Shown here one piece after another: positions 17,881 through 21,678 of a stretch of 64,000 nt of DNA. The position numbers and the translations under genes are program-made. The DNA comes from Escherichia coli (GTDB lineage Bacteria; Pseudomonadota; Gammaproteobacteria; Enterobacterales; Enterobacteriaceae): the NCBI RefSeq assembly GCF_003018235.1, contig NZ_CP027437.1; one strand, written 5' to 3'. Position 1 is the first letter of the stretch. Each line of letters starts with the position of its first letter. The notes under the pieces are model-generated. The model did not search any database. It saw nothing but the letters and a program-made list of their open reading frames with translations, and was not told the DNA's origin.

Positions 17881-18921
17881 TCATTTATCGGAAGACGCCT
17901 GCCACAGATTCAGCTCGCCATCGGCGATATGCTGATCAATCTGCGCCAGCTCCTCGGTGCTAAATGTCAGATTATTCAGCGCCTGCACGTTCTCCTCAAG
18001 TTGCTCCGCGCGGCTGGCACCAATCAATACCGACGTCACGCGATCATCTTTCAGCAACCAGCTTAACGCCATTTGCGCCATTGATTGTCCACGTTGCTGT
18101 GCCATTTCATTTAATAACCGCAGGCTGTTGAGGTTGGCTTCGGTGAGCATTTTCGGCGTCAGACCACGAACTTTATTCCCTTCACGATGCATCCGTGAAT
18201 CTTGCGGAATGCCGTTGAGATATTTCCCGGTCAGCAATCCCTGAGCCAGAGGAGTAAAGGCAATGCAGCCCACGCCGTTATTTTGCAGGGTATCCAGCAG
18301 GCCGCTTTTATCCACCCAGCGGTTCAGTAAATTGTAAGAAGGTTGATGAATTAACAGCGGAATTTTCCACTCGCGCAGTAACTCGACCATTTTTTGCGTC
18401 CGCTCTGGCGAGTAAGAGGAGATCCCGACATACAGCGCCTTACCGCTTTGTACCGCATGGGCCAGCGCAGAGGCGGTTTCTTCCATCGGCGTATTTTCAT
18501 CGACGCGATGAGAGTAAAAGATATCGACATACTCAAGCCCCATACGCTTCAGGCTTTGGTCGAGGCTGGCGAGCAGGTATTTACGTGAACCGCCAGAGCC
18601 GTAAGGGCCGGGCCACATATCGTAGCCAGCCTTGGTAGAGATAATCAGTTCATCGCGATAAGCGGCAAAATCCTCCCGCAGCAGGCGACCAAAGTTCTCT
18701 TCTGCGCTTCCTGGAGGCGGCCCGTAATTGTTGGCTAAATCAAAGTGCGTAATGCCTAAATCAAACGCTTTACGCAGGATCGCACGCTGTGATTCCAGCG
18801 CGTTAACGTGACCGAAATTGTGCCATAAACCGAGCGATAACGCGGGCAGGCGTAAACCGCTTTTTCCGCAATAACGGTACTGCATCTGCCCGTAACGCTC
18901 GGGATTCGCTAACCAGACCAT
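17881..18921 (-). CDS. gpr: L-glyceraldehyde-3-phosphate reductase (aldo-keto reductase)
   Basis: 346-aa ORF of the AKR family (yghZ). Confidence 0.85.
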   Translation of the reverse strand: MVWLANPERYGQMQYRYCGKSGLRLPALSLGLWHNFGHVNALESQRAILRKAFDLGITHFDLANNYGPPPGSAEENFGRLLREDFAAYRDELIISTKAGYDMWPGPYGSGGSRKYLLASLDQSLKRMGLEYVDIFYSHRVDENTPMEETASALAHAVQSGKALYVGISSYSPERTQKMVELLREWKIPLLIHQPSYNLLNRWVDKSGLLDTLQNNGVGCIAFTPLAQGLLTGKYLNGIPQDSRMHREGNKVRGLTPKMLTEANLNSLRLLNEMAQQRGQSMAQMALSWLLKDDRVTSVLIGASRAEQLEENVQALNNLTFSTEELAQIDQHIADGELNLWQASSDK

Positions 18922-19074
18922 GACCTCTCCTTTCCACCGTTCAATTTCGAAACAATGTTTCTAGTTTAGCGATTCATCAGCGCGTATCCCGTAGTCTGGC
19001 TCACAGAGTGACGAAAAACTGGGCAAAAACACGTGCTTATGCTTTGCTTAAAAAAACACCAATTGAGGAGTGCA

Positions 19075-19965
19075 ATGATGCCGCGTCTGACCGCTAAAGA
19101 TTTCCCACAAGAGTTGCTGGATTACTACGACTATTACGCTCACGGGAAAATTTCGAAACGTGAGTTCCTCAACCTTGCGGCGAAGTATGCGGTAGGCGGG
19201 ATGACGGCATTAGCGTTGTTTGATTTGCTCAAGCCAAATTATGCGCTGGCGACTCAGGTAGAGTTTACCGACCCGGAAATTGTTGCTGAGTACATCACGT
19301 ATTCTTCACCAAATGGTCACGGCGAGGTGCGGGGTTATCTGGTGAAGCCCGCAAAGATGAGCGGCAAAACGCCAGCCGTAGTGGTGGTGCATGAGAATCG
19401 TGGACTGAATCCGTATATCGAAGATGTGGCACGGCGAGTGGCGAAGGCGGGGTATATCGCCCTGGCACCTGACGGCTTAAGTTCCGTTGGAGGTTATCCG
19501 GGTAATGATGATAAAGGTCGTGAGCTGCAACAGCAGGTTGATCCAACCAAACTGATGAATGATTTCTTTGCCGCAATTGAGTTTATGCAACGCTATCCGC
19601 AAGCGACAGGCAAAGTGGGTATTACCGGATTTTGCTATGGCGGTGGCGTATCGAACGCGGCGGCTGTCGCGTATCCGGAACTGGCCTGCGCGGTGCCGTT
19701 TTATGGTCGACAGGCACCCACCGCCGATGTGGCGAAGATTGAAGCGCCTTTACTGCTGCACTACGCGGAACTGGATACCCGAATCAACGAGGGCTGGCCC
19801 GCTTACGAGGCGGCGTTGAAAGCCAATAATAAGGTCTATGAGGCGTATATCTATCCGGGGGTTAATCACGGATTCCATAATGATTCCACGCCCCGTTATG
19901 ACAAATCTGCCGCCGATCTTGCCTGGCAAAGGACGCTGAAATGGTTCGATAAATATCTCTCCTGA
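19075..19965 (+). CDS. yghX: Dienelactone hydrolase-family protein, intact
   Basis: 296 aa from ATG at 19075, preceded by RBS gaggag; alpha/beta-hydrolase motif GFCYGG. Confidence 0.75.
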   Translation: MMPRLTAKDFPQELLDYYDYYAHGKISKREFLNLAAKYAVGGMTALALFDLLKPNYALATQVEFTDPEIVAEYITYSSPNGHGEVRGYLVKPAKMSGKTPAVVVVHENRGLNPYIEDVARRVAKAGYIALAPDGLSSVGGYPGNDDKGRELQQQVDPTKLMNDFFAAIEFMQRYPQATGKVGITGFCYGGGVSNAAAVAYPELACAVPFYGRQAPTADVAKIEAPLLLHYAELDTRINEGWPAYEAALKANNKVYEAYIYPGVNHGFHNDSTPRYDKSAADLAWQRTLKWFDKYLS

Positions 19966-20046
19966 TAGGTTTATCTCTTACGGGATTACGTCTTAAACAA
20001 GCATGAAAAAATAGCGTGCGCAAAAGTCGTTCTTTGCCTAAAATAT

Positions 20047-20070
20047 CGCTATATATGGCAATATATAGCG
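20047..20070. promoter_or_regulatory. Perfect 24-bp palindrome (cgctatatat-ggca-atatatagcg) 14 bp upstream of yghW
   Basis: 10-bp arms with a 4-bp spacer read directly; the location suggests an operator. Confidence 0.4.
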
Positions 20071-20083
20071 AATGAGGTGAACG

Positions 20084-20371
20084 ATGAATAACCATTTTGG
20101 TAAAGGCTTAATGGCGGGATTAAAAGCAACGCATGCCGACAGTGCGGTTAATGTGACAAAATACTGTGCCGATTATAAACGCGGTTTTGTATTAGGCTAC
20201 TCACACCGGATGTACGAAAAGACCGGAGATCGCCAGCTTAGCGCCTGGGAAGCGGGTATTCTGACGCGCCGCTATGGACTGGATAAAGAGATGGTAATGG
20301 ATTTCTTTCGTGAGAATAATTCCTGTTCTACGTTGCGCTTTTTTATGGCCGGTTATCGCCTCGAAAATTGA
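20084..20371 (+). CDS. yghW: Small protein of unknown function (DUF2623-like)
   Basis: 95-aa ORF; position between yghX and hybO. Confidence 0.7.
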
Positions 20372-20559
20372 TCAAACATACGTATTATCTTGCTTTAATT
20401 AATTACACTAATGCTTCTTCCCTTCGTTTTAGCGCCCCGCCGCAGTATCATGATATCGATAACCATAATAAATGTGTGGTAAATGGCGCATCGATCGCAT
20501 TATTGATTTTGCGATTGAGGCAAAATATATGCCAGGTCTTCGCAACGGAATAACTATAA

Positions 20560-21678
20560 ATGACTGGAGATAACACCCTCATCCATTCTCACGGCATTAA
20601 CCGTCGTGATTTCATGAAGCTTTGTGCAGCATTAGCCGCCACCATGGGGTTAAGTAGCAAAGCCGCGGCAGAGATGGCCGAATCGGTTACTAACCCGCAG
20701 CGTCCGCCAGTTATCTGGATTGGCGCGCAGGAGTGTACCGGTTGTACGGAATCTCTGCTTCGTGCAACGCATCCAACGGTAGAAAACCTCGTGCTGGAGA
20801 CTATCTCTCTGGAATATCACGAAGTGCTTTCCGCCGCCTTCGGTCATCAGGTCGAAGAGAACAAACATAACGCTCTCGAGAAGTACAAAGGGCAGTATGT
20901 GTTAGTGGTGGATGGTTCCATCCCATTAAAAGATAATGGTATTTATTGCATGGTTGCCGGTGAGCCGATTGTGGATCACATCCGCAAAGCGGCGGAAGGC
21001 GCAGCAGCCATTATCGCTATCGGTTCCTGCTCTGCGTGGGGCGGTGTTGCCGCGGCTGGGGTTAACCCAACTGGCGCAGTCAGCCTGCAAGAAGTTCTGC
21101 CTGGCAAAACCGTTATCAACATTCCGGGCTGCCCGCCGAACCCGCACAACTTCCTCGCGACCGTTGCGCACATTATCACTTACGGCAAGCCGCCGAAACT
21201 GGATGACAAAAACCGTCCGACCTTCGCCTATGGCCGTCTGATTCACGAACACTGTGAACGTCGCCCGCACTTCGATGCTGGTCGCTTTGCGAAAGAGTTC
21301 GGCGACGAAGGCCACCGTGAAGGCTGGTGCCTGTACCACCTCGGCTGTAAAGGGCCAGAAACTTACGGCAACTGCTCAACGCTGCAATTCTGCGACGTTG
21401 GCGGCGTGTGGCCGGTGGCGATTGGTCACCCGTGCTATGGCTGTAACGAAGAAGGTATCGGCTTCCATAAAGGCATCCATCAGCTTGCCAACGTCGAAAA
21501 TCAGACTCCGCGTTCACAGAAACCGGACGTTAACGCTAAAGAAGGCGGCAACGTCTCTGCGGGCGCTATTGGTTTGCTCGGCGGTGTGGTTGGGCTGGTT
21601 GCCGGTGTCAGCGTGATGGCGGTGCGTGAACTGGGTCGTCAGCAAAAGAAAGATAACGCTGACTCACGGGGAGAATAA
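20560..21678 (+). CDS. hybO: Hydrogenase-2 small subunit (NiFe), Tat signal
   Basis: 372-aa ORF; RRDFMK twin-arginine signal and Cys-rich Fe-S motifs. Confidence 0.95.

What the first reader, a model, noticed from the sequence alone, without database searches (positions are those of the whole stretch)
19075..19965. yghX is an uninterrupted dienelactone-hydrolase gene
A single 296-aa frame with a good RBS and the alpha/beta-hydrolase motif GFCYGG is present. I recall yghX as a frameshifted pseudogene in K-12, so this is another marker of a non-K-12 lineage and a potentially active hydrolase.
Basis: partly seen in the sequence, partly recalled or inferred. Interest (0 to 1): 0.2.

Follow-up and report, generated by a model that had tools for sequence, protein, structure and literature searches.

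The report
Intact yghX hydrolase gene, ordinary
This E. coli window carries an unbroken copy of yghX, a cysteine-type dienelactone-hydrolase-family enzyme that is broken by two small deletions in K-12, but the unbroken form is the normal, already annotated and crystallised state in about three quarters of E. coli.

Summary
Window 19075-19965 (+) is one open frame with a GAGGAG ribosome-binding site and the GFCYGG nucleophile motif. The conserved start is the second ATG at 19078, giving 295 aa, because 19075 is ACG in six other lineages checked.

The product matches NCBIfam "YghX family hydrolase" (586 bits, cut-off 460) and Pfam DLH (E 3e-48). Its Cys186/Asp233/His264 align with the ClcD triad C123/D171/H202. 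It is 98% identical to PDB 4ZV9, the E. coli O157:H7 protein.

K-12 MG1655 is indeed a frameshifted pseudogene. It has a 2-bp deletion in codon 37 and a 1-bp deletion in codon 157.

That allele is not K-12-specific. About 1,200-1,250 of 5,426 complete E. coli genomes carry it, and about 4,200 are undeleted. dN/dS among intact alleles is 0.03-0.13, so the gene is maintained. The exact protein is already in public databases on at least 1,000 contigs. The finding is correct, already known and of low interest.

Two side observations:
- K-12's "small protein" YqhI is the translated stub of this gene.
- The family has a conserved 58-aa N-terminal leader that looks like a twin-arginine export signal. 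It reads RR in 80% of distant homologs and KR here. AlphaFold nevertheless predicts it as confidently folded, so export is unresolved.

The parts
19064..19069 (+). Shine-Dalgarno GAGGAG, 8 nt before ATG 19078 and 5 nt before ATG 19075
   Evidence: Sequence read directly. Conserved in all 8 alleles compared.
19078..19965 (+). yghX coding sequence, 295 aa plus stop. A lineage-specific extra ATG at 19075 would give 296 aa.
   Evidence: The protein is identical to WP_001360974.1 of strain ST2747.
19078..19251 (+). N-terminal leader, residues 1-58. Its parts are the conserved 'YqhI-like' segment (Pfam PF23678, residues 1-36), S-K27-R28-E-F-L (RR in most distant homologs), a moderately hydrophobic stretch, and P53-N-Y-A-L-A58 followed by T59-Q60. 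It is a candidate Tat signal or a structured N-terminal element.
   Evidence: Pfam hit, family alignment A2, motif counts, hydropathy against HybO, and AF2 pLDDT 89-95. The PDB 4zv9 construct begins at about residue 59/60.
19156..19161 (+). Codons K27-R28, the position of the twin-arginine pair in homologs
   Evidence: coordinates read.
19186..19188 (+). Codon Y37 (TAT), intact here. This is the site of the 2-bp deletion of the K-12-type allele.
   Evidence: Alignment A1, junction check, and 1,251 genomes carrying the deletion.
19546..19548 (+). Codon T157 (ACC), intact here. This is the site of the 1-bp (C) deletion of the K-12-type allele.
   Evidence: Alignment A1, junction check, and 1,198 genomes carrying the deletion.
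19327..19959 (+). Dienelactone-hydrolase (alpha/beta hydrolase) domain, residues 84-294
   Evidence: Pfam PF01738 E 3.1e-48. Foldseek: 4zv9 rmsd 0.6 A, and 1din TM-score 0.81 normalised to 1din.
19633..19635 (+). Cys186 codon, the nucleophile in G-F-C-Y-G-G
   Evidence: Aligns with residue 123 of ClcD (C123S in 4u2c). Nearly invariant in A2.
19774..19776 (+). Asp233 codon, the triad acid
   Evidence: Aligns with ClcD D171. Invariant in A2.
19867..19869 (+). His264 codon, the triad base
   Evidence: Aligns with ClcD H202. Nearly invariant in A2.

Best explanation
The feature is the intact, ancestral allele of yghX. It is a stand-alone gene between gpr (divergent) and yghW/hybO. It encodes a 295-aa cysteine-nucleophile alpha/beta hydrolase of the dienelactone hydrolase family.

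Shown here:
- The frame is open and has a conserved RBS and start.
- The Cys186-His264-Asp233 triad, plus Glu106 and Arg148 (equivalent to ClcD E36 and R81), is in place.
- The catalytic domain is 98% identical to a solved E. coli O157 structure.
- The gene evolves under strong purifying selection across E. coli.
- K-12 and about 22-23% of sequenced E. coli carry a derived allele broken by a 2-bp and then a 1-bp deletion.

Inferred:
- The enzyme hydrolyses an ester, lactone or thioester bond through an acyl-cysteine intermediate, as ClcD does. The natural substrate is unknown and is probably not a dienelactone, because ClcD's R206 is Asn268 here.
- It is expressed from its own promoter. In K-12 the same start drives the stub protein YqhI, which is induced at low Mg2+.
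- Its 58-aa leader may direct Tat-dependent export. This last step is unresolved.
For: - ORF, RBS and start.
- Family assignment: NF041440 586.3 bits against cut-off 460; Pfam DLH E 3e-48.
- Triad and auxiliary residues from the alignment with ClcD variant 4u2c; invariance in 34 diverse homologs.
- Structure: 4zv9 E 8e-160; AF2 model against 4zv9 rmsd 0.6 A.
- K-12 frameshifts.
- Allele counts: 1,251 and 1,198 genomes deleted; at least 3,333 and 4,221 undeleted.
- An intermediate allele with only the 2-bp deletion exists (AVS0575).
- Intact 294-299-aa orthologs occur in Citrobacter, Pseudescherichia, Enterobacter, Kosakonia, Leclercia and E. fergusonii.
- dN/dS is 0.03-0.13 among intact alleles.
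- The exact protein is on at least 1,000 public contigs, named 'YghX family hydrolase'.
- The start is used in vivo: YqhI was detected by epitope tagging (PMC6001520) and is induced at low Mg2+ (PMC11429745).
Against: No enzymatic activity of YghX on any natural substrate is known. The purified O157 catalytic domain (EcoDLH) showed no phosphotriesterase activity, and its active-site Cys was modified or oxidised in the crystal (bioRxiv 10.1101/2025.10.30.685675). The consensus scan found no sigma-70 promoter upstream on the + strand. Expression in this particular strain was not measured.
Confidence: 0.93

Rival explanations
1. YghX is made as a precursor whose first 58 residues are a Tat (twin-arginine) signal peptide with a long n-region. 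The folded Cys hydrolase is exported to the periplasm and cleaved after A-L-A58. Enterobacteria use a K-R variant of the motif.
For: - The family consensus reads ...RRxFLxR, then an Ala/Gly/Thr/Leu-rich variable stretch, then P-x-Y-A-x-A, then QV..DP.
- Of 75 distant representatives that have the N-terminus, 60 have RR and 13 have KR.
- Hydrophobicity of the stretch (best 15-aa Kyte-Doolittle mean 1.55) equals that of the bona fide Tat signal of HybO in the same window (1.46).
- TIGR01409 TAT_signal_seq is hit in 6 of 34 homologs. One is above the cut-off (17.4 against 16.7) and the others score 13.5-16.4 bits.
- Rieske-TAT and formate-TAT models give weak hits.
- Some homologs insert Ala/Pro/Thr-rich linkers after the stretch.
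- The depositors of 4zv9 removed residues 1 to about 59.
- From my own knowledge: natural KR Tat signals (Salmonella TtrB) and 56-aa Tat signals with the RR at about residues 26-27 (B. subtilis PhoD) exist.
Against: - The window protein has KR, and only 12 uncharged residues lie between K36 and D49.
- It gives no hit to any Tat model.
- AlphaFold2 predicts residues 1-60 as three short helices with pLDDT 89-95, in both the E. coli protein and an RR homolog. This is unlike typical cleaved signals.
- The n-region is unusually conserved; it is a Pfam family of its own, PF23678.
- No paper in the searched library links DLH proteins to Tat.
Confidence: 0.4
2. The N-terminal 58 residues are a permanent, folded helical element (a lid or cap, or a membrane-associating segment) of a cytoplasmic enzyme. 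The RRxFL resemblance to Tat signals is a relic or a coincidence.
For: - AF2 pLDDT is 84-96 over the leader in two family members, with pTM 0.91-0.93.
- LYDxYxH and R28 are conserved, and D65 is nearly invariant and could pair with R28.
- KR occurs in all 120 close homologs, which are mostly enterobacterial, and in 17% of distant representatives.
- Only one homolog passes the TIGR01409 cut-off.
Against: - The hydrophobic stretch is compositionally simple and variable in sequence, as in signal peptides.
- P at -6 and A-x-A at -3/-1 form a textbook signal-peptidase site.
- The catalytic domain crystallises and folds without the leader.
- The model coordinates and PAE were not available to me, so docking of the leader onto the domain could not be checked.
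Confidence: 0.4
3. The open frame is intact only by chance or recent history, and the gene is functionless in E. coli generally, that is, a not-yet-broken pseudogene.
For: - The gene has been lost by frameshift in about 23% of genomes without obvious cost.
- A few genomes carry larger deletions: 10 of 5,425 cover less than 80% of the region.
- K-12 derivatives use the locus freely as an integration site (papers listed).
Against: - dN/dS is 0.03-0.05 between deep E. coli lineages, for example 40 synonymous against 5 nonsynonymous differences between the window and ST95.
- Full-length orthologs are kept across Enterobacteriaceae.
- The triad is invariant or nearly invariant in homologs down to 36% identity.
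Confidence: 0.04
4. The difference from K-12 is a sequencing or assembly artefact in one of the two sequences.
For: Indels in short homopolymer or repeat contexts (CC, TAT) are a common error class.
Against: The two K-12-type junctions are found exactly in 1,248 and 1,198 independent complete genomes. The undeleted junctions are matched in at least 3,333 and 4,221 genomes, of which 828 and 4,202 match exactly. K-12's stub protein YqhI, with the frameshifted tail CGRRDDGISVV, was detected experimentally.
Confidence: 0.01

Closest known systems
YghX of E. coli O157:H7 Sakai (PDB 4ZV9, 'EcoDLH'); NCBIfam NF041440 YghX family hydrolase
   Same: It is the same gene at the same locus (gpr-yghX-yghW-hybO). 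Identity is 98% over residues 59-294, with 4 substitutions: V68F, S76P, S135N and Y229F. The triad is the same, and the AF2 model superposes at 0.6 A.
   Different: Only those four substitutions, plus a lineage-specific extra ATG at 19075. The crystal construct lacks the first ~59 residues.
K-12 MG1655 yghX pseudogene (formerly yghX_1/yghX_2) and the small protein YqhI
   Same: It is the same locus, with the same RBS and start codon. Coding-region differences are 15 synonymous and 2 nonsynonymous.
   Different: K-12 lacks 2 bp in codon 37 and 1 bp in codon 157. It makes only the 47-aa stub YqhI: 36 native residues plus an 11-residue frameshift tail.
ClcD dienelactone hydrolase (carboxymethylenebutenolidase, EC 3.1.1.45) of Pseudomonas knackmussii (PDB 1DIN, 4U2B)
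   Same: It has the same alpha/beta fold (TM-score 0.81 normalised to 1din). C123/D171/H202 align with C186/D233/H264, and E36 and R81 are conserved as E106 and R148.
   Different: Identity is only about 25%. The substrate-binding R206 is Asn268 in YghX. ClcD has no N-terminal leader and sits in a chlorocatechol operon, whereas yghX stands alone.
Tat signal peptides (TIGR01409), for example HybO encoded 600 bp downstream in this window
   Same: Both have an (S/T)-x-R-x-F-L-type motif, a moderately hydrophobic Ala/Gly-rich stretch and A-x-A. The hydropathy is similar.
   Different: YghX has KR instead of RR and a 26-residue conserved n-region. It gives no model hit, and AF2 predicts the region as confidently folded.

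Membership tests
YghX family hydrolase (NCBIfam NF041440) | Whole-protein HMM score at or above the curated cut-off (460 bits), covering the full model | tested here: met
   586.3 bits, model positions 1-292 of 292.
YghX family hydrolase (NCBIfam NF041440) | Orthologous position between gpr and yghW/hybO | tested here: met
   The window ORFs match the annotated order yghA-yqhA-gpr-yghX-yghW-hybO-hybA in K-12 and ST2747.
Dienelactone hydrolase family (Pfam PF01738) | Pfam HMM above the gathering score | tested here: met
   164.6 bits against 21, model positions 1-217 of 217.
Dienelactone hydrolase family (Pfam PF01738) | Cys-His-Asp catalytic triad with Cys in the G-x-C-x-G nucleophile elbow | tested here: met
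   C186/D233/H264 align with ClcD residues 123/171/202. They are invariant or nearly invariant in 34 homologs.
Dienelactone hydrolase family (Pfam PF01738) | Alpha/beta hydrolase fold superposable on ClcD | tested here: met
   Foldseek hit to 1din with E 1.4e-16 and TM-score 0.81 normalised to 1din; 4zv9 rmsd 0.6 A.
Carboxymethylenebutenolidase, EC 3.1.1.45 (true dienelactone hydrolase activity) | Substrate-carboxylate-binding arginines R81 and R206 of ClcD | tested here: not met
   R81 is conserved as R148, but R206 aligns with Asn268. There is also no chlorocatechol or maleylacetate gene context.
Carboxymethylenebutenolidase, EC 3.1.1.45 (true dienelactone hydrolase activity) | Hydrolysis of cis/trans-dienelactone to maleylacetate | not testable with these tools
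   This needs an enzyme assay.
Tat (twin-arginine) signal peptide | Consecutive arginines in the S/T-R-R-x-F-L-K motif | tested here: not met
   The window protein has S-K-R-E-F-L. RR occurs in 60 of 75 distant homologs, and KR in all 120 close homologs, which are mostly enterobacterial.
Tat (twin-arginine) signal peptide | Match to TIGR01409 at or above the cut-off (16.7 bits) | tested here: not met
   The window protein gives no hit. Among homologs, 1 of 34 passes (17.4 bits) and 5 are sub-threshold.
Tat (twin-arginine) signal peptide | Moderately hydrophobic h-region followed by an A-x-A signal-peptidase site | tested here: met
   YAVGGMTALALFDLL has a Kyte-Doolittle mean of 1.55, against 1.46 for HybO. 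P53-N-Y-A56-L-A58 follows.
Tat (twin-arginine) signal peptide | TatABC-dependent export and cleavage | not testable with these tools
   This needs fractionation or a reporter assay in wild type against a tat mutant.
K-12-type yghX pseudogene allele | 2-bp deletion in codon 37 and 1-bp deletion in codon 157 | tested here: not met
   The window has TAT at 19186-19188 and ACC at 19546-19548.

The most novel reading that the evidence does not exclude
The YghX subfamily may be a previously unrecognised class of Tat-targeted cysteine hydrolases. Its unusually long, conserved leader is confidently folded by AlphaFold. In this reading the leader (Pfam 'YqhI-like' segment, then RR/KR-x-F-L, then A-x-A) serves both as an export signal and as a structured pro-segment that docks on the enzyme before export. 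E. coli strains with the intact gene would then have a periplasmic, low-Mg2+/stationary-phase-induced esterase or lactonase that K-12 lacks. The K-12 'small protein' YqhI would be nothing more than the orphaned leader.
Probability: 0.3. Interest if true: 0.4.

Novelty: already known. Interest (0 to 1): 0.1.

Why it matters
There is little new here. The intact gene is annotated by PGAP in thousands of genomes, its product has a crystal structure, and K-12's pseudogene status is in every K-12 annotation.

The practical points are modest:
- yghX is a real, selected gene in most E. coli, including BL21-type, O157 and ExPEC strains. Treating it as a 'neutral pseudogene integration site' is valid only in the K-12-type clade.
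- Studies of the K-12 small protein YqhI are looking at the stub of this enzyme's leader.
- The enzyme's substrate and cellular location remain open and could be settled with simple experiments.

Tried and rejected
- Gene neighbourhoods of three distant homologs showed no conserved partner, so context gives no clue to function.
- The Rfam scan of 18500-20600 on both strands found nothing at E up to 1.
- The consensus promoter/terminator scan found no + strand promoter upstream of yghX, and the number of sites was no higher than in shuffles.
- Searches for papers linking dienelactone hydrolases to Tat gave only incidental co-mentions or nothing.
- Foldseek against afdb50 was unavailable. The model coordinates and PAE are not exposed, so I could not check whether the leader docks over the active site.
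- The old suggestion that YghX is a cPHB polymerase rests only on the GxCxG motif (review PMC3709699). I did not adopt it, because the motif is simply the DLH nucleophile elbow.
- Names in the source databases for homolog clusters gave only 'carboxymethylenebutenolidase' or 'dienelactone hydrolase family', with nothing about export.

Full report
**1. Observation.** The + strand of window 18900-20100 holds one uninterrupted frame ending at TGA 19963-19965. ATG codons lie at 19075 and 19078, preceded by GAGGAG at 19064-19069. ATG 19075 is specific to this lineage. It is shared with the best-matching complete genome at this locus, strain ST2747 (99.9% identity), but it is ACG in K-12, AVS0575, O157, ST95, the BL21-type strain BAP1 and CX04. 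PGAP starts the gene at the equivalent of 19078, and the K-12 stub protein also begins MPRLT. The conserved product is therefore 295 aa. I use that numbering below.

**2. What it is.**
- The protein scores 586.3 bits against NCBIfam NF041440 'YghX family hydrolase' (cut-off 460).
- It scores 164.6 bits (E 3e-48) against Pfam DLH over residues 84-294.
- It gives a second Pfam hit, PF23678 'YqhI-like', over residues 1-36.
- The neighbours are gpr (divergent, 17881-18921), yghW (20084-20371) and hybO (20560-21678). This is the same order as in K-12 and ST2747.
- The closest solved structure is 4ZV9, an 'uncharacterized protein from E. coli O157:H7 str. Sakai'. It covers residues 59-294 at 98% identity. 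An AlphaFold2 model of the window protein superposes on it at 0.6 A.
- Alignment with the ClcD variant 4u2c puts Cys186, Asp233 and His264 on ClcD residues 123, 171 and 202. Glu106 and Arg148 fall on E36 and R81. ClcD's second substrate-binding arginine, R206, is Asn268 here.
- In 34 diverse homologs (36-68% identity) D233 is invariant, and C186 and H264 are at least 90% conserved.

So this is a cysteine-nucleophile alpha/beta hydrolase of the DLH family. The failed R206 test and the lack of any aromatic-degradation context argue against calling it a true dienelactone hydrolase.

**3. K-12 comparison.** RefSeq annotates MG1655 yghX as 'frameshifted'. Relative to the window, K-12 lacks 2 bp within codon Y37 (window 19186-19188) and one C of codon T157 (19546-19548). 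The net change is -3, so codons 37-157 are read out of frame with many stops.

**4. How common each state is.** I used 40-42-nt junction queries, which megablast can seed only if the indel state matches.

| Site | K-12-type deletion | Undeleted |
|---|---|---|
| 2-bp site (codon 37) | 1,251 of 5,426 genomes | at least 3,333 |
| 1-bp site (codon 157) | 1,198 genomes | 4,221 |

- The 3,333 is a lower bound, because SNPs block seeding in divergent lineages.
- At the 1-bp site the two counts sum to 5,419 of the 5,425 genomes that have the region.
- The broken allele is thus carried by about 22-23% of complete genomes. These include K-12 derivatives, ETEC H10407 and many isolates from human, animal and water sources.
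- About 53 genomes have only the 2-bp deletion. AVS0575 is a verified example. This suggests the 2-bp deletion came first.
- The gene is intact in O157, ST95, BAP1 (BL21-type) and CX04, which has one extra Val codon.
- Full-length orthologs occur in E. fergusonii, Citrobacter, Pseudescherichia, Enterobacter, Kosakonia and Leclercia.

The intact state is therefore ancestral and the majority. It is a true but weak 'non-K-12' marker.

**5. Is it maintained?** Pairwise Nei-Gojobori estimates among intact alleles give dN/dS of 0.03-0.13. For the window against ST95 there are 40 synonymous and 5 nonsynonymous differences. The K-12 allele shows no excess of nonsynonymous change, so its decay is recent. 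The exact window protein is already in public collections on at least 1,000 contigs, named 'YghX family hydrolase' or 'Dienelactone hydrolase'.

**6. Expression evidence from the literature.**
- The K-12 small protein YqhI has the sequence MPRLTAKDFPQELLDYYDYYAHGKISKREFLNLAAKCGRRDDGISVV. It was detected by chromosomal epitope tagging (PMC6001520). It equals the first 36 codons of yghX plus the frameshift tail seen in my translation of the K-12 allele. The yghX start site is therefore used in vivo.
- YqhI is induced under Mg2+ limitation independently of PhoQP. Its deletion phenotype was not complemented by YqhI itself (PMC11429745). That paper never mentions yghX.
- yghW has its own reported sigma-70 promoter in the yghX-yghW spacer (PMC3946193), so yghX is probably monocistronic.
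- Many metabolic-engineering papers use yghX in K-12 as a pseudogene integration site.
- The O157 catalytic domain ('EcoDLH') has been purified by others. It showed no promiscuous phosphotriesterase activity, and its active-site Cys was modified or oxidised in the crystal (bioRxiv 10.1101/2025.10.30.685675).

**7. The N-terminal leader.** This is the only part that is not routine.

*Points towards a Tat signal:*
- Aligning 34 diverse homologs gives the consensus ...LYDxYxHxxxxRRxFLxR, then an Ala/Gly/Thr/Leu-rich stretch, then PxxAxA, then xxVxxxDPR.
- Among 75 distant cluster representatives that include the N-terminus, 60 have RR, 13 KR, 1 HR and 1 RK. All 120 close homologs, which are mostly enterobacterial, have KR.
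- Pro at -6 and A-x-A at -3/-1 before T59 form a textbook signal-peptidase site.
- The stretch is as hydrophobic as the genuine Tat signal of HybO in the same window, 1.55 against 1.46.
- The 4ZV9 depositors omitted residues 1 to about 59.
- TIGR01409 is hit in 6 of 34 homologs, once above its cut-off (17.4 against 16.7 bits).

*Points against:*
- The window protein itself hits no Tat model and has KR.
- The n-region is conserved enough to be its own Pfam family.
- AlphaFold2 predicts residues 1-60 as three short helices with pLDDT 84-96, in both the E. coli protein and an RR homolog. This is unlike typical cleaved signals.

I could not inspect the model coordinates or PAE. I therefore leave two readings at roughly equal weight: a Tat-exported precursor, or a cytoplasmic enzyme with a folded N-terminal element.

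**8. Verdict.** The feature is the ordinary, ancestral, already annotated and structurally solved yghX gene. The K-12 pseudogene is the derived state, shared by roughly a fifth of sequenced E. coli. Novelty is 'already known' and interest is low. The leader and the identity of YqhI are worth a note but are outside the finding as given.

Noticed in passing
window 19078-19185 (codons 1-36); K-12 locus L001 2657-2800: The K-12 'small protein' YqhI (47 aa, low-Mg2+-induced) is the first 36 codons of yghX plus an 11-residue frameshift tail. Pfam PF23678 'YqhI-like' is therefore the N-terminal leader of full-length YghX-family hydrolases; 27 of 34 distant homologs match it. The recent YqhI study does not mention yghX.
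   Followed up: yes
window 19078-19251 (residues 1-58): The leader looks like a long Tat signal: RR in 80% of distant homologs, KR here, and PxxAxA before T59. AlphaFold2 nevertheless gives it pLDDT 84-96 as three short helices in two family members. Whether it is exported is unresolved.
   Followed up: partly
window 19075-19077: An extra in-frame ATG directly before the conserved start exists only in this lineage (window and strain ST2747). It is ACG in K-12, AVS0575, O157, ST95, BAP1 and CX04.
   Followed up: yes
window 20046-20071: A perfect 11+11-nt palindrome, TCGCTATATAT-TGCC-ATATATAGCGA, lies 13 nt upstream of the yghW start (20084). It overlaps the position of the yghW sigma-70 promoter reported by Shimada et al. 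2014 (TTGCCT-17-GACAAT in K-12). It may be an operator; no regulator was identified.
   Followed up: no
locus L003 (strain AVS0575) 357-1242; about 53 genomes by count: An intermediate allele exists with the 2-bp deletion but not the 1-bp deletion. This suggests the two K-12 lesions arose sequentially, 2 bp first.
   Followed up: partly
locus L004 (strain CX04) 357-1247: This allele has one extra Val codon in the VVVV run just before the HENRG motif (296 aa) and is still annotated as intact.
   Followed up: no
window 19078-19962 against L006 (ST95): Synonymous divergence between this window's yghX and the ST95 allele is high for within-species E. coli (dS about 0.22), while dN is 0.007. Only 36 of 5,425 complete genomes are at least 99% identical to the window over this 1.16-kb region, so the window comes from a sparsely sampled lineage.
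   Followed up: no
E. coli genome collection: One yghX-region match lies on a plasmid. Ten genomes have less than 80% coverage of the region; for example, IAL7255 keeps only the last 215 bp. One genome has no match. These are other, rarer routes of loss or relocation.
   Followed up: no
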